UHGV virus genome: UHGV-0371537
Direction: 5' to 3' (one strand)
DNA: 64,000 nt
Origin: a virus
Part shown: in pieces, positions 2 to 29,636 of the stretch
Layout: each line of letters opens with the position of its first letter
Numbering within the stretch: the stretch's first letter is position 1
Position numbers and translations under genes: made by a program
The notes under the pieces: generated by a model
Seen by the model: the letters and a program-made list of their open reading frames with translations, nothing else
Databases searched by the model: none
What the model was told of the DNA's origin: nothing

Positions 2-439
2 AAGGGCTACCTCAATGACGATGAATTTAATCGAGGCGGAATGGAGGCTGGCGATTTGATCATGACTGGCCGAATGGGCACCCAAGGCCGAATGACAGTC
101 AGACAGTGCCGTTCGCTTCCTTCTCCGGCATTACAGAAGGGTGTGCAGATAGGCCGCCGTCACCTGAACCTCATCAACGATGGCAACCAGTGCATCAAAG
201 TATTCGAATACAGCGCTACACAGACCTCTGATCGCGTCCTGAAGAAGGAATGGCGTACTCGCGCTCTTGGTCTCAGAGCCTGGCTGGTTGAGAACGATCA
301 TTATTTTGAGGATCGTGTTCAGAACGGTCTGAAAGACCTGGCCACGAATCTGAGCGTGAACCTTGATGATCCTCGCATGTCGCGCGAACTTCAGCAGACT
401 CGTGTTGACTGCGACAATATGATGAAGGAGAACGAGTGA
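2..439 (+). CDS. hypothetical protein, 3' portion (gene starts upstream of window)
   Basis: Open frame runs from window edge to stop at 437-439; no family recognised. Confidence 0.4.
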   Translation, partial: KGYLNDDEFNRGGMEAGDLIMTGRMGTQGRMTVRQCRSLPSPALQKGVQIGRRHLNLINDGNQCIKVFEYSATQTSDRVLKKEWRTRALGLRAWLVENDHYFEDRVQNGLKDLATNLSVNLDDPRMSRELQQTRVDCDNMMKENE

Positions 440-753
440 TGAAAGGTAAAATCCTACTCCTGCTGTTACTGATGACCGGGTGTGTAAACGCTACACCACC
501 GTCTAAACTGAATACCTGCGCCGCCTGGATGGAGACGTATCAGCAGTTCCACCCAGATGACAAAGATACATCTATCCTCCTGTCTGACTTCGAGGGGGAG
601 CTGAAGCGCCTTGATCTGTTCAGTGTTGATCAGATAGAGAATGCGCTGGATCTTCCCATGATGCTGACTGCGGCTGATAACAGCCCACAGACGAAGAAAG
701 ATCTGATGTATTGCCGGGGGATTGCCCAAGACTTTGTTGGCGTTTCAAAATAG
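439..753 (+). CDS. putative lipoprotein
   Basis: N-terminus MKGKILLLLLLMTGC = signal peptide with lipobox L-x-G-C; ATG overlaps upstream stop (gTGATGa). Confidence 0.5.
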   Translation: MKGKILLLLLLMTGCVNATPPSKLNTCAAWMETYQQFHPDDKDTSILLSDFEGELKRLDLFSVDQIENALDLPMMLTAADNSPQTKKDLMYCRGIAQDFVGVSK

Positions 754-10755: not shown

Positions 10756-10920
10756 ATGAACTACGAACAAATTAAACTGGCTATTCTGATCTTTGCATGC
10801 ATCATTGACATCATTGCATTTTCTCGTGAAACCGAAAGGAAAAACTACCTGAAAGCACTGGGGTATCTCGGGTTCTCTGCCTGGTTCTGTTATCTACTTG
10901 CAGGTCAAATCCTGAAATGA
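10756..10920 (+). CDS. small hydrophobic protein (54 aa)
   Basis: Unlisted ORF MNYEQIKLAILIFACIIDIIAF...; two hydrophobic segments; stop overlaps next ATG. Confidence 0.3.
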   Translation: MNYEQIKLAILIFACIIDIIAFSRETERKNYLKALGYLGFSAWFCYLLAGQILK

Positions 10921-11246
10921 AAGTCGTCCACTTCAAGAAGGAGCCATATGACGTCTACATCGGGCGTCCCGGGAAATGGGGAAACCCGTTCGAGGTCAAA
11001 GACCACGGGCGGGGGAACTGCATCGAGTTGTTTGAAGACTACTTGTATGTGCGCCTGATTGAAGGGGATATCACCGAGGATGAACTCCTTGAGCTTGATG
11101 GGAAGATCTTGGGGTGTTGGTGTAAGCCGCGCCCCTGTCACGGAGATGTTTACGTCAAAGTCATTGGTCGTATTAAACTATTCCGCAAGCTGGGTAAATC
11201 CTTTACTGAACACCTGAGACAAACATATGTCAGAATCAAAAGATGA
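10917..11246 (+). CDS. DUF4326-like protein
   Basis: YDVYIGRPGKWGNPF ... GKILGCWCKPRPCHGDV pattern as I recall for DUF4326. Confidence 0.55.
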   Translation: MKVVHFKKEPYDVYIGRPGKWGNPFEVKDHGRGNCIELFEDYLYVRLIEGDITEDELLELDGKILGCWCKPRPCHGDVYVKVIGRIKLFRKLGKSFTEHLRQTYVRIKR

Positions 11247-11511: not shown

Positions 11512-11610
11512 GGCTGAAGGGCACTAAATATCACGTGCCCTTTATCTTTTAACCCCTGTCAGGAGGCTCAATCGAGCTGCAAGTCGACAAACCACATAAG
11601 GAACGCCATC

Positions 11611-12225
11611 ATGACGATGACAACGTTGAAGGCCATGGCCTTGTCCGTGACCTTTACCATTGCCAGCGGGAATGTGCACGCTTCCCAAAATACAAGTCAA
11701 TGTGTTTATGATTTCTCTGAGCAACAACTTAATACGCTGGCAACTGCCTATCACATAGGCAAGACACAAGATCTTGGTTACACTCTGGCCGCCATATCTT
11801 GGCGAGAGAGCCGCGCTGGTGAAGATGTAGTGTCAATGCGCTATGGACTCAAGGCGGCCAACATGGGAGCCTTTCAGAACAAGGTGAAGACAGTTGGTGA
11901 TCGCGAAGGTTGTAAGAATCGCAAGTGCTATGCCAATGTCGCCATAAAGTTGCTGACCGACCAAGAATATGCCGCGCAAGCCGCCCTCGAAGAGATGCAG
12001 TTCTGGCTGACCTATCACAAGCAGAATGTACGCAAATCCCTCTCCTCTTACAATGCTGGCTTCGCCCGTAATCCCGCATCGAACGCTTATGCCGCTGACG
12101 TCGTGAAGAAAGCTAAATATCTTCAGAAATGTGTGTCCTTCAAAGGCCGGACCATCTCCGAGGTAGATCCTCAGGTGATCGCCATGAACAAGCGCACGAT
12201 AGAGAAACTGAAGAGGACAAGATAA
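11611..12225 (+). CDS. secreted lytic transglycosylase-like protein (SLT domain)
   Basis: N-terminal signal-peptide-like MTMTTLKAMALSVTFTIASGNVHA; AISWRESRAGE...GAFQ...YNAG resemble SLT catalytic motifs (E-S, GLMQ, AYNAG). Confidence 0.55.
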   Translation: MTMTTLKAMALSVTFTIASGNVHASQNTSQCVYDFSEQQLNTLATAYHIGKTQDLGYTLAAISWRESRAGEDVVSMRYGLKAANMGAFQNKVKTVGDREGCKNRKCYANVAIKLLTDQEYAAQAALEEMQFWLTYHKQNVRKSLSSYNAGFARNPASNAYAADVVKKAKYLQKCVSFKGRTISEVDPQVIAMNKRTIEKLKRTR

Positions 12226-12863
12226 TGAACATCACTCCATCTCAGACCGGATATGAACATATCTTGGTCTTCATCGCTCTACAGGGCGCGAAGGAAGGCA
12301 TCATCGTATCCGAGTACTCGGGGACTGTGCGCCTTGCCGATTACGTCGCACCCGAGGCGTTCATTAAGAAGTGTATTGATGCGTGGTGCCTCTATGCCCT
12401 CGGCACGTATCCTGCCCCTCCTGAGGGCGAGCTGTTGTTTACTGTACCGACTCCGGCTGCTGGCGATACGGACGCGATCTTTGCCGATATGCTGGCCAAG
12501 GGGTATCTGGTGTATGATATCACTCACGATGTCTACTCCTTCACCTCGCTGAACACCGTGTTTGGGTTCACCATCACGTCTGAAGCCAACATCCCTGACT
12601 GGGGCATCTTGGCGTGGGGCGTTGACGGCCTGGGCGCAACCTATGCATCGTCCGATGTCGGTCCTGTGTTGATTGATGAGGGTGTAACCATGGAGCAGTA
12701 CCTTGCTCAGTTCCCTCAGCACAATATCACAGGCAGCGACATCATTTTAGTTCAGCCTGGTGCTATCGCTCTCCCCCGTTTGGTGGATGGATGGAAGCCT
12801 CAGCTGAAGGATATCATCGCCGGGATCAGATTCCATATTCCTGTGGTGAACCCAACGCCGTAA
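12225..12863 (+). CDS. hypothetical protein
   Basis: ATG 12225 with gaagagga RBS; TAATG overlap with upstream gene. Confidence 0.45.
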   Translation: MNITPSQTGYEHILVFIALQGAKEGIIVSEYSGTVRLADYVAPEAFIKKCIDAWCLYALGTYPAPPEGELLFTVPTPAAGDTDAIFADMLAKGYLVYDITHDVYSFTSLNTVFGFTITSEANIPDWGILAWGVDGLGATYASSDVGPVLIDEGVTMEQYLAQFPQHNITGSDIILVQPGAIALPRLVDGWKPQLKDIIAGIRFHIPVVNPTP

Positions 12864-20380: not shown

Positions 20381-21175
20381 ATGGCCATTCTAAAACTTGG
20401 CAACCGTGGCACTGAAGTGAAGGCACTTCAGGATAGCCTCAACAAAATCGGCTTCACCCTCGTCGCCGACGGCATCTTTGGTAAGGCAACAGAGAACGCT
20501 GTCAAGACTGTTCAGGCGGGTGCGGGGCTTGTCATCGACGGTATCGTGGGTCCAAAGACCTCCTATGCTATTCGCAACGCTGGAGACGCCCATCAAGATC
20601 ACCTGACCGAGGCTGACCTTATCGATGCGGCTAATCAGCTTGGAGTTGATCTCGCCTCTGTAAAGGCGGTCAACCAGGTGGAATCCCGTGGCACTGGCTT
20701 CACCAAGTCAGGTAAGATCAAGACATTGTTCGAACGCCACATCATGTACAAGAAGCTCATGGCGAAGTTCGGCCAGGCTCGGGCGAATGCTATAGGGCAG
20801 ATGTACCCGACGTTGGTCAGTCCTTCTGCAGGTGGGTACACGGGCGGCGATGCAGAACTGGATCGACTTCATGCGGCCATCAACATCGACGAGGATTGTG
20901 CGTACGAGAGTGCCTCATACGGTCTCTTCCAGATCATGGGCTTCAACTGCCAGGTCTGTGGGTATGCCAATGCCAAGGAGATGTTCAATGACTTCCTGAC
21001 AGGCGAACGTGCTCATCTGATGGCATTCGTGAAGTTCATCAAGGCCGATGCCAAGCTCTGGCAGGCTCTGAAGGACAAGAACTGGGCTGAGTTTGCGCGG
21101 CGCTATAATGGTCCGGCGTATGCCAAGAACCAGTACGACACGAAGCTCGCTGCTGCATACAAGAGTTTCAGTTAA
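20381..21175 (+). CDS. endolysin: peptidoglycan-binding domain plus N-acetylmuramidase-like domain
   Basis: N-terminus LKLGNRGTEVKALQDSLNKIGF...DGIFGKAT...GIVGPKT = PG_binding_1-like; C-terminus WAEFARRYNGPAYAKNQYDTKL typical of the DUF3380/muramidase family; ggagg RBS. Confidence 0.8.
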   Translation: MAILKLGNRGTEVKALQDSLNKIGFTLVADGIFGKATENAVKTVQAGAGLVIDGIVGPKTSYAIRNAGDAHQDHLTEADLIDAANQLGVDLASVKAVNQVESRGTGFTKSGKIKTLFERHIMYKKLMAKFGQARANAIGQMYPTLVSPSAGGYTGGDAELDRLHAAINIDEDCAYESASYGLFQIMGFNCQVCGYANAKEMFNDFLTGERAHLMAFVKFIKADAKLWQALKDKNWAEFARRYNGPAYAKNQYDTKLAAAYKSFS

Positions 21176-28025: not shown

Positions 28026-29636
28026 TTACTCTTCGGTGCCGAAATTACCACCATTGTCTTTTAATTCTGCCTTGATATCAATCTCACCTGGACCCGTAGG
28101 GGATGCAGGGGTTGCACCTGACAGAGAAGAGGCGCGACCAGCACCTTCCGCATATTTGATGTTGCCATTAATCGTCTGGGCCACAGTCAGTTTGTCGGCG
28201 ATGATCTCTGTTGCCAGAATCTTAGGAACCTTCAACGTCCCGCCGACCTCCAGAGTCTCACAGATAATACGCAAAATATTCTGCGCCTGCAACTCAGCCA
28301 GGTTGCTGAATTTCATCAACGCTGTGCCAGCAACAACATTAGAATAGTTGTTGGAATGCAAATGATAGACTTCACCAGTCTTGCGCTGCACTTCCGTTCC
28401 TTTGATCGTCAGGTTGTGATCGCCGCCAACATAATAACGTTTGTTGAACATCGTCAGATCATAATGATCTTTCACAGACTTGTTCACAACGTCACCGTCT
28501 GGCAGCATTTGTTTGTACGACCCGGACATGTGCATCCAGTGAAGACGTTCGCCCCCCGGTGTGTCATCCACTTCCATGATGTGGCCAGCCCGAGAAGCCA
28601 TGACGTTGTTGTACGGATACTTGGACCCACCCGCAGCCGGAACCATAGTTTCGCCAGTGTTGTCAATGTCCTGAACACGGCCTGTTGGTGCTGGCGTTGC
28701 CTGCTCTTTCGGAGTCCGATCTGGAATTGGTTCTGACCATTTACCGTTCTGTTGGGCGGGGGCAGCCGCAGCTGTGTTTGCAGGTCCAGGCCAGCGATAG
28801 CCCAAGACCGAAGAACGGCTGAAACGACTGACCTTCACTGAATCGGATTGGTTGCCCCCGATACACCAGACATAGTTGGCATCGAACTTCTGCACGAACG
28901 CCACATGGCCGAATGTCGGGTTGTTACCGCGCCGGAAGACCACGATAGCGCCATACTGAGGTGCCGACAATGGACTACCCCACGTCAGGTAAGATCGGGC
29001 AAGAGCGGAGCGTGTGGAAGTGTATCCGGCCTTTAACATAACCCAACCAACAAACGCAGCGCACCAGGATACTTCATCTTCAGATGCACCAAGCGAGGTT
29101 GTCTTGTGATACTCAACGATGCGGGGGTTGTTGTTGAACTTGCCAGCATATTCTTTGACGCCAAGTTCACCACGGGCGATAGTCATCCATTTTTCAGGAT
29201 CATACCCACCCACAGGAGGCTGAGGGTCTGGCTGAGGTTCGTCTTCTTGCTTTACAGGTACATCAGTGACAGCATTGTACGCCTGACGTTCAACAGACAT
29301 GACGACCTGCCCCAGAGCCAGGGGGTTTGTGTCCGCCCCATCAGTCGGGGTCGCACCCGGCCAGGTCCATGCGATTCTGAGATTCTGGTATGCGTCATCC
29401 AGCGCGAACCCCATGACTTCCGTGCCGACAATGATACCCGTAGGGGACCAACCTAAACCTGCCGAGGAGGCATTCGACGCAGGCATCATCACTTTTGCCC
29501 ATGGGAGTTTATCCGTAGGCAAGAGGACGGGATCATCTGTATGTATGCCGTGTATGCGAACGGCCACGCGCCCGTTTTCATCAGGATCATTGACGTCTTC
29601 AACGGTGCCATAAAACCATCTCATTTTGTCTAACAT
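28026..29636 (-). CDS. 5: baseplate central spike/hub protein gp5-like carrying a CHAP peptidase domain
   Basis: N-terminal OB-like RWFYGTVEDVNDPDENGRVAVRIHG; central Cys/His pair SWCAAFVGW...GHVAFV (CHAP-like); C-terminal repetitive region. Confidence 0.65.
   Translation of the reverse strand: MLDKMRWFYGTVEDVNDPDENGRVAVRIHGIHTDDPVLLPTDKLPWAKVMMPASNASSAGLGWSPTGIIVGTEVMGFALDDAYQNLRIAWTWPGATPTDGADTNPLALGQVVMSVERQAYNAVTDVPVKQEDEPQPDPQPPVGGYDPEKWMTIARGELGVKEYAGKFNNNPRIVEYHKTTSLGASEDEVSWCAAFVGWVMLKAGYTSTRSALARSYLTWGSPLSAPQYGAIVVFRRGNNPTFGHVAFVQKFDANYVWCIGGNQSDSVKVSRFSRSSVLGYRWPGPANTAAAAPAQQNGKWSEPIPDRTPKEQATPAPTGRVQDIDNTGETMVPAAGGSKYPYNNVMASRAGHIMEVDDTPGGERLHWMHMSGSYKQMLPDGDVVNKSVKDHYDLTMFNKRYYVGGDHNLTIKGTEVQRKTGEVYHLHSNNYSNVVAGTALMKFSNLAELQAQNILRIICETLEVGGTLKVPKILATEIIADKLTVAQTINGNIKYAEGAGRASSLSGATPASPTGPGEIDIKAELKDNGGNFGTEE

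What the first reader, a model, noticed from the sequence alone, without database searches (positions are those of the whole stretch)
11611..12225. Signal-peptide-bearing SLT-domain transglycosylase separate from the endolysin
The ORF starts with a signal-peptide-like segment and contains WRES...GAFQ...YNAG, resembling soluble lytic transglycosylase motifs. The phage already has a modular endolysin (20381-21175) and a spike peptidase, so a third, secreted wall-active enzyme is unusual. It could serve lysis, superinfection exclusion or remodelling.
Basis: partly seen in the sequence, partly recalled or inferred. Interest (0 to 1): 0.45.

Follow-up and report, generated by a model that had tools for sequence, protein, structure and literature searches.

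The report
Exported T4 Vs.1-type lytic transglycosylase
The gene is real and encodes a small cell-wall-cutting enzyme that the phage sends into the host's periplasm; it is the Ackermannviridae copy of a long-known, widespread but never experimentally studied phage family (T4 Vs.1), so it is ordinary rather than unusual.

The parts
11517..11550 (+). Hairpin AAGGGCAC-N10-GTGCCCTT followed by TATCTTTT. It looks like a terminator for the upstream gp47/gp46/DUF4326 operon.
   Evidence: Read directly from the sequence. The scanner missed it because the loop is 10 nt. The hairpin is conserved in Kuttervirus, Agtrevirus and Taipeivirus relatives but replaced by a different hairpin in L010. Function is inferred.
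11524..11532 (+). CTAAATATC, an Ackermannviridae late-promoter-like motif, 87 nt before the ATG.
   Evidence: The extended motif CTAAATA[CT]C occurs 11 times in 150 kb of phage SPTD1, against 2.0 +/- 1.3 expected. Those sites lie upstream of the sheath, gp6, VriC, tailspike, neck and scaffold genes. The motif CTAAATAcCcc is cited in PMC7283392. Its position is kept in the divergent locus L010, but it is mutated in Taipeivirus FKP14. This is a prediction only.
11544..11610 (+). 5' leader that is almost invariant across Ackermannviridae, including the RBS AAGGA at 11598-11602.
   Evidence: Alignment A3. Sliding identity to L010 is 0.8-0.95 here against about 0.6 in the coding sequence. The leader is unique in the window. 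It has no Rfam match and no unusual folding energy. Its function is unexplained.
11611..12225 (+). CDS of the Vs.1-type exported lytic transglycosylase (204 aa plus stop).
11611..11682 (+). Signal peptide, residues 1-24, with predicted cleavage at VHA|SQ.
   Evidence: Heuristics; family-wide conservation; residues 1-28 are disordered in the model. Cleavage itself is inferred.
11779..12096 (+). GH23/SLT catalytic domain (Pfam match, residues 57-162).
11806..11811 (+). Codons for catalytic Glu66 and Ser67 (motif I, E-S).
   Evidence: E is present in 180 of 180 and S/T in 180 of 180 aligned relatives. The Glu aligns with the Glu of EtgA's AWNES motif.
11866..11877 (+). G86-A-F-Q89, the counterpart of motif II (GLMQ).
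   Evidence: G in 173 of 181; the last position is Q in 89 and H in 79.
12046..12060 (+). S146-Y-N-A-G150, the counterpart of motif III (AYNAG).
   Evidence: Y147 and G150 in 180 of 180; N148 in 162 of 181.
12088..12090 (+). Invariant Tyr160, a candidate for motif IV.
   Evidence: 180 of 180.
12113..12121 (+). Second CTAAATATC, inside the gene and 112 nt before the downstream gene's start.
   Evidence: conserved in five of the seven related loci compared.
12225..12863 (+). Downstream gene (DUF7270, 212 aa). Its ATG overlaps the stop codon (TAATG). One related record labels it a structural protein.
   Evidence: It is adjacent in most Ackermannviridae loci examined.
20381..21175 (+). Context: the canonical endolysin (PG_binding_1 plus Muramidase PF11860).
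28026..29636 (-). Context: gp5-like central spike with a CHAP peptidase domain.

Best explanation
The gene encodes a Sec-exported, soluble periplasmic family-1 (GH23) lytic transglycosylase, the Ackermannviridae ortholog of T4 Vs.1. After cleavage at VHA|SQ, the mature protein is about 20 kDa and basic (pI 9.6), and is probably stabilised by two disulfides (C31-C174 and C101-C106). It uses Glu66 as the single acid/base catalyst to cut MurNAc-beta-1,4-GlcNAc bonds, leaving 1,6-anhydroMurNAc ends. Because it reaches the wall through Sec, it acts without the holin. It is therefore not the main endolysin. It is an accessory enzyme that nicks or locally opens the sacculus during infection, which would prepare the wall for the final step by endolysin and spanin. 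Shown here: gene, family membership, fold, motif conservation, export-signal features. Inferred: cleavage, disulfides, enzymatic activity, timing and biological role.
Against: No member of the family has been assayed, so activity and localisation are predictions. The single-sequence Pfam score is only 0.1 bit above threshold. Foldseek against PDB gave only weak E-values (0.02 or worse). The hydrophobic core here is weaker than in T4 Vs.1 (Kyte-Doolittle 1.9 against 2.4 for the best 10-mer), and I had no dedicated signal-peptide predictor. The Q of motif II is replaced by H in 79 of 181 members. Timing is ambiguous: a late-type motif here, early transcription in T4. The accessory-lysis role has no direct support. 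By established knowledge, T4 e mutants fail to lyse, so Vs.1-type enzymes are not sufficient for lysis.
Confidence: 0.7

Rival explanations
1. A specialised 'space-making' transglycosylase, working like EtgA, IpgF or VirB1. It has low intrinsic activity and opens local gaps in the sacculus so that a phage trans-envelope assembly (for example the i-spanin/o-spanin bridge) can form or move. It may be activated by a phage partner.
Against: No partner has been identified. Gene neighbours differ between lineages. EtgA's second acidic residue, D60, aligns with N84 here and with a variable column (S, N, D or A) in the family.
Confidence: 0.2
2. A superinfection-exclusion or competition factor. By altering the peptidoglycan, or by occupying or clearing it, the infected cell blocks penetration by later-arriving phages.
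For: Periplasmic location and pre-late expression in T4 fit known exclusion factors such as T4 Sp and Imm (established knowledge). In Felixounavirus the gene sits next to rIIA and rIIB.
Against: Cutting peptidoglycan should help rather than hinder penetration. No homology to any known exclusion protein was found. The active site is strictly conserved, whereas exclusion factors evolve quickly.
Confidence: 0.07
3. A catalytically silent SLT-fold protein that only binds peptidoglycan, or that sequesters or inhibits something in the periplasm.
For: Sequence similarity to characterised enzymes is weak. Motif II is variable.
Against: The catalytic Glu, the neighbouring Ser/Thr, Y147, G150 and Y160 are invariant over 180 sequences down to about 25% identity. 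That is the pattern of a conserved active site.
Confidence: 0.04
4. A virion-borne transglycosylase used during entry.
For: The downstream, translationally coupled DUF7270 gene is labelled 'structural protein' in one record. A late-promoter-like motif lies upstream. SLT domains are common in phage tail and core proteins.
Against: A cleavable Sec signal sends the protein out of the cytoplasm, where virions assemble. The spike already carries a CHAP enzyme. The gene was not among the EspM4VN virion gene products named in the passages read (PMC7283392); the full 18-protein list in its Figure 7 was not seen. T4 Vs.1 is not a known virion protein (established knowledge).
Confidence: 0.03

Closest known systems
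T4 Vs.1 (NP_049725, gene between regB and vs) and its orthologs in Straboviridae; PHROG 600
   Same: Homologous over nearly the full length (31% identity, E 9e-19). Both have a signal peptide followed by an SLT domain, with E-S, G-x-F-Q and Y-N-x-G motifs. Both are of similar size and lie among non-lysis genes.
   Different: The Ackermannviridae clade adds two Cys pairs and a basic 30-residue C-terminal extension (residues 175-204) with two short helices. The neighbours differ (gp46, DUF4326 and DUF7270 instead of regB and vs). A late-type promoter motif lies upstream here, whereas T4 vs.1 is transcribed early.
EtgA, IpgF and IagB, the specialised lytic transglycosylases of type III secretion systems (PDB 8urn, 4xp8)
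   Same: EtgA is the best solved sequence relative (E 1e-6). These are small Sec-exported proteins made of an SLT domain only, and the catalytic Glu and YNAG motifs align.
   Different: The gene is not in a secretion-system locus. EtgA's Asp60 corresponds to Asn84 here. No activating rod-protein partner is known.
Family-1 housekeeping lytic transglycosylases (Slt70/Slt, MltC, MltD, MltE, MltF; GH23, Pfam PF01464)
   Different: Those enzymes carry extra domains or lipid anchors; this protein is the bare domain. Sequence identity is only 12-19%.
Kayvirus Tgl (Staphylococcus phages; PMC7150955)
   Same: The same logic: a phage enzyme with transglycosylase motifs, exported by the host Sec system, encoded apart from the main endolysin, and transcribable early.
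   Different: Gram-positive host, and a different fold family (IsaA/SceD-like). No homology to Tgl was tested or shown here.

Membership tests
Family-1 lytic transglycosylases (GH23, Pfam SLT PF01464) | Lysozyme-like, mainly alpha-helical GH23 fold | tested here: met
Family-1 lytic transglycosylases (GH23, Pfam SLT PF01464) | Catalytic Glu in an E-S motif at the end of a helix | tested here: met
   E66-S67 close helix 56-67. E is present in 180 of 180 relatives. It aligns with the Glu of EtgA's AWNES motif.
Family-1 lytic transglycosylases (GH23, Pfam SLT PF01464) | Motifs II (GLMQ), III (AYNxG) and IV (a conserved Tyr); the motif definitions are from my own knowledge of Blackburn and Clarke | tested here: met
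   GAFQ at 86-89, SYNAG at 146-150, Y160. Y147, G150 and Y160 are invariant. The Q of motif II alternates with H in the family.
Family-1 lytic transglycosylases (GH23, Pfam SLT PF01464) | Score above the Pfam gathering threshold | tested here: met
   21.4 bits against 21.3, which is borderline. T4 Vs.1 scores 25.1.
Family-1 lytic transglycosylases (GH23, Pfam SLT PF01464) | Non-hydrolytic cleavage that yields 1,6-anhydroMurNAc | not testable with these tools
   Needs an enzyme assay with LC-MS. Goose-type lysozymes, which are hydrolases, share the fold.
T4 Vs.1 family (PHROG 600) | Full-length homology to the family profile and to T4 Vs.1 | tested here: met
   PHROG 600 at E 1.4e-58 over 173 of 178 profile positions. 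BLASTP to T4 Vs.1 at E 9e-19.
T4 Vs.1 family (PHROG 600) | N-terminal export signal | tested here: met
   Heuristic features. Found in 160 of 181 members, and most exceptions look like truncated start calls. No SignalP run was possible.
SAR (signal-anchor-release) endolysins | An uncleaved, weakly hydrophobic N-terminal transmembrane segment of about 20 residues that tethers the enzyme until the membrane depolarises | tested here: not met
   The hydrophobic core is only about 13 residues, the best 19-mer hydropathy is 1.12, and a V-H-A|S cleavage site follows. This is a heuristic result, not an experiment.
Canonical holin-dependent endolysin | A cytoplasmic enzyme without an export signal, usually in or near a lysis cassette | tested here: not met
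   An export signal is present. The gene is flanked by recombination and DUF genes. A separate endolysin lies at 20381-21175.
RegB endoribonuclease (the label carried by several public records) | Homology to T4 RegB | tested here: not met
   tblastn places the T4-like matches on the vs.1 gene next to regB, not on regB itself. The label is an annotation slip.
Secretion-system specialised transglycosylases (EtgA/IpgF/VirB1 type) | Encoded within, and acting with, a secretion-system gene cluster | tested here: not met
   The genomic context is phage replication and DUF genes. The resemblance is in sequence and architecture only.

The most novel reading that the evidence does not exclude
Vs.1-type enzymes would be a distinct, regulated step of infection by large virulent myoviruses of Gram-negative bacteria. 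In this reading, a periplasmic transglycosylase is produced under tight control, exerted through the nearly invariant 5' leader and start region. It remodels the sacculus before lysis, for example to let spanins or other envelope-spanning phage components work, or to control how the infected cell responds to secondary infection. Deleting it would then have a measurable effect on lysis timing, lysis inhibition or exclusion across T4-like, Ackermannviridae and Felix O1-like phages.
Probability: 0.15. Interest if true: 0.55.

Novelty: already known. Interest (0 to 1): 0.2.

Why it matters
For this window it matters little. The gene is a routine, already catalogued core gene, and some public records already call it a lytic transglycosylase. 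The wider point is modest but real. A strictly conserved, exported peptidoglycan-cutting enzyme is present in 2108 phage records, including model phage T4, and still has no experimentally assigned role. Phage T4 would therefore make an easy genetic test case. The analysis also gives two practical corrections. The "RegB" label on this gene in several public records (EspM4VN, ZQ1, Coodle, Maynard among those seen) is wrong. A very conserved leader upstream of the gene deserves a look as a regulatory element.

Tried and rejected
- **Single-sequence search of PDB:** no hit. The family profile was needed.
- **NCBIfam:** nothing meaningful.
- **Lipoprotein reading:** rejected, no lipobox.
- **SAR or signal-anchor reading:** rejected on length and hydropathy.
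- **Sigma-70 promoter scan:** gave only a site that would start transcription inside the start codon, so I discarded it.
- **T4-type TATAAATA late promoters:** absent near the gene.
- **SPTD1 "late promoter" annotation:** it turned out to mark every CTAAATA occurrence, with minus-strand coordinates shifted by 6 nt, so it is not independent evidence. Only the extended 9-mer is enriched.
- **RNA structure in the conserved leader:** z-score 0.25, no covariation, no Rfam family. A structured RNA is neither supported nor excluded.
- **Literature searches for an experimental role of Vs.1 or the Ackermannviridae protein:** nothing found. The Miller 2003 T4 review was not available.
- **Disulfide geometry in the model:** could not be checked, because coordinates are not exposed.

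Full report
**Observation**

It starts with ATG, preceded by AAGGA 8 nt upstream. The three quoted motifs are present at W64-R-E-S67, G86-A-F-Q89 and Y147-N-A-G150.

The window is part of an Ackermannviridae genome. It is 94% identical in DNA to Yersinia phage CAU_YEP3, and the protein is 99.5% identical to that of Enterobacter phage EspM4VN. The gene is real: 343 phage records cover at least 80% of it, and close relatives score E 1e-126.

**Fold and active site**

- On its own the protein only just reaches Pfam's SLT threshold (21.4 against 21.3 bits, E 2e-4). It has no sequence hit in PDB.
- It matches PHROG 600 ('unknown function') at E 1.4e-58.
- An AlphaFold2 model built on 14 relatives has mean pLDDT 87 and pTM 0.81. 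Residues 1-28 are disordered and the rest is an all-helical domain with a small beta-hairpin.
- A profile of 80 diverse relatives hits the type III secretion transglycosylase EtgA at E 1e-6. The family's E-S aligns with EtgA's AWNES Glu, and YNAG aligns with YNAG.
- In a 181-sequence alignment, E66, S/T67, Y147, G150 and Y160 are present in all 180 sequences that cover those columns. This set combines representatives at 50% identity from a 1.8-billion-protein library, near relatives and T4 Vs.1. G70, G86 and W132 are nearly invariant.
- This is the pattern of a preserved active site. It matches the four motifs of family-1 lytic transglycosylases (motif definitions are from my own knowledge).
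- The residue aligned with EtgA's second acid, D60, is N84 here and is variable in the family. A single-acid transglycosylase mechanism is therefore more likely than a lysozyme one. Only an assay can settle this.

**Export**

- The N-terminus reads MTMTTLK / AMALSVTFTIASG / NVHA|SQ. It has one Lys, a 13-residue hydrophobic core, small residues at -3 and -1, no lipobox, and a best 19-mer hydropathy of 1.12, too low for a membrane anchor.
- I had no SignalP, so this is a heuristic call. It is backed by comparison with relatives.
- 160 of 181 family members have an equivalent N-terminal hydrophobic segment, against roughly one in six of the window's other ORFs under the same crude rule.
- Most exceptions are truncated start calls. 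For example, P0025's ORF extends upstream to MTLSKLKAMGAL....
- T4 Vs.1 (MRKALLAGLLAISMMAHS|SE), Acj61, Felixounavirus and Vibrio phage homologs carry textbook signal peptides.
- Cys31/Cys174 and Cys101/Cys106 occur as pairs across the family: 96 with both, 56 with neither and 29 with one for the first pair; 38, 141 and 2 for the second. These counts are not corrected for phylogeny. Paired cysteines fit disulfides formed in the periplasm.

**Identity**

The protein is homologous to T4 Vs.1 (31% identity over 165 residues, E 9e-19). In T4 the vs.1 gene lies between regB and vs. That neighbourhood explains why several Ackermannviridae records call this gene 'RegB'. The label is an annotation slip.

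tblastn finds homologs in 2108 phage records, mostly Straboviridae, Ackermannviridae and Felixounavirus. A full HMMER scan finds 827 cluster representatives. The weak SLT similarity of vs.1 was reported in 2006, citing earlier PSI-BLAST results (PMC1524935). Some records already label the Ackermannviridae gene a lytic transglycosylase. I found no experimental work on any member.

**Context**

The endolysin at 20381-21175 is PG_binding_1 plus a PF11860 muramidase. The central spike at 28026-29636 (-) is a gp5 OB domain plus CHAP.
- An Rz-like spanin lipoprotein lies at 436-753.
- T4 has the same trio: gp5 lysozyme, gp e and Vs.1. A third, exported enzyme is therefore the norm for these phages, not an oddity.
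- The gene is never in a lysis cassette. Here and in divergent Ackermannviridae loci the order is gp46, a small ORF, DUF4326, (an ORF), SLT, DUF7270.
- In Felixounavirus it follows rIIA and rIIB. In T4-likes it lies between regB and vs. In Vapseptimavirus it lies near nrdAB and thymidylate synthase.

**Timing**

T4 Vs.1 is classed as an early RNA and a middle protein (PMC9697503 supplements).

In this window a hairpin plus T-run (11517-11550) follows the upstream operon. The motif CTAAATATC sits at 11524, 87 nt before the ATG. A second copy at 12113 precedes the downstream DUF7270 gene.

CTAAATAcCcc is a motif noted for these phages (PMC7283392). In 150 kb of phage SPTD1 the extended form CTAAATA[CT]C occurs 11 times against 2.0 +/- 1.3 expected. 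Ten of the 11 are on the strand that carries the structural genes. Among the listed sites are those just upstream of the sheath, gp6, VriC, tailspike, neck and scaffold genes.

The site upstream of this gene keeps its position in locus L010, whose protein is only 59% identical. It is mutated in Taipeivirus. The early-promoter-like motif TTCAAT-N14-TATAAT is enriched in the window (6 sites against 0.26 expected), but none lies near this gene.

Late transcription is therefore a reasonable prediction, possibly on top of read-through from upstream. It is unproven and differs from T4.

**Mechanism**

I commit to the following. The protein is exported through Sec, cleaved, and acts as a soluble periplasmic lytic transglycosylase with Glu66 as the catalytic acid/base. 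It acts independently of the holin. It works as an accessory wall-remodelling or wall-weakening enzyme, not as the main lysin.

The molecular part is well supported. The biological role is inference from four points:
- the enzyme's periplasmic location;
- its separation from the lysis genes;
- the established fact that T4 e mutants do not lyse, so Vs.1 is not sufficient for lysis;
- precedents such as Kayvirus Tgl.

E. coli tolerates raised periplasmic transglycosylase activity after a transient lysis phase (PMC10139938). This makes pre-lysis export compatible with a productive infection.

The rivals are listed with their tests: an EtgA-like space-maker, an exclusion factor, a silent binder, and a virion enzyme.

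**By-product**

The 5' leader and the first 24 nt or so of the coding sequence (about 11544-11634) are almost invariant, even against L010. Identity is 0.8-0.95 there against about 0.6 in the rest of the gene. The element is unique in the window. It has no Rfam match and no unusual folding energy or covariation. Only a small GGCUC/GAGCU hairpin with a variable loop is visible. It may be a translational or transcriptional control element. I could not explain it.

**Verdict**

This is an already known family member. Interest is low, apart from the standing question of what Vs.1-type enzymes do.

Noticed in passing
window 11544-11634: The 5' leader and the first 24 nt or so of the SLT gene are almost invariant across Ackermannviridae. 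This holds even against a metagenomic relative whose protein is only 59% identical. There is no Rfam hit and no significant folding signal, and the cause is unknown.
   Followed up: partly
window 11524-11532 and 12113-12121; SPTD1 loci L005-L007: CTAAATA[CT]C is enriched about five-fold in phage SPTD1 and lies upstream of structural genes. Its only two copies in this window precede the SLT gene and the DUF7270 gene. The 'late promoter' features in record OP991882.2 mark every CTAAATA occurrence, and those on the minus strand are shifted by 6 nt.
   Followed up: partly
public records hit by window 11611-12225 (e.g. LC373201.2, MW650886.1, Dickeya phage Coodle, Salmonella phage Maynard): The gene is widely labelled 'RegB' or 'endoribonuclease'. 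It is homologous to T4 vs.1, the gene next to regB, not to regB itself, so the label is a propagated annotation error.
   Followed up: yes
window 436-753 (+), with overlapping upstream ORF 41-439: A lipoprotein with lipobox LMTGC matches the PHROG 'Rz-like spanin' family (E 1e-53). The overlapping upstream ORF matches only the C-terminal 132 of 229 positions of PHROG 4260. It may be the partner spanin or a shortened gene.
   Followed up: partly
window 6386, 17158, 22149, 32494, 49754 (+) and 59045 (-): The early-promoter-like motif TTCAAT-N14-TATAAT occurs 6 times (allowing one mismatch) against 0.26 expected by chance.
   Followed up: no
window 11100-11180 (inside the DUF4326 gene 10917-11246): A second peak of nucleotide conservation (0.9 identity to the divergent locus L010) falls in the Cys-rich part of the DUF4326 protein.
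   Followed up: no
window 12136-12222 (residues 176-204 of the protein): The Ackermannviridae clade carries a confidently modelled, strongly basic C-terminal extension (…NKRTIEKLKRTR) that is absent from T4-type and Felixounavirus homologs. Its role is unknown.
   Followed up: no
window 12225-12863: The DUF7270 gene's start overlaps the SLT gene's stop codon (TAATG). It directly follows the SLT gene in the Kuttervirus/Agtrevirus/Taipeivirus relatives and in L011, is one gene further downstream in L010, and has no DUF7270 hit recorded in L012. One record calls it a structural protein, and no function is known.
   Followed up: partly
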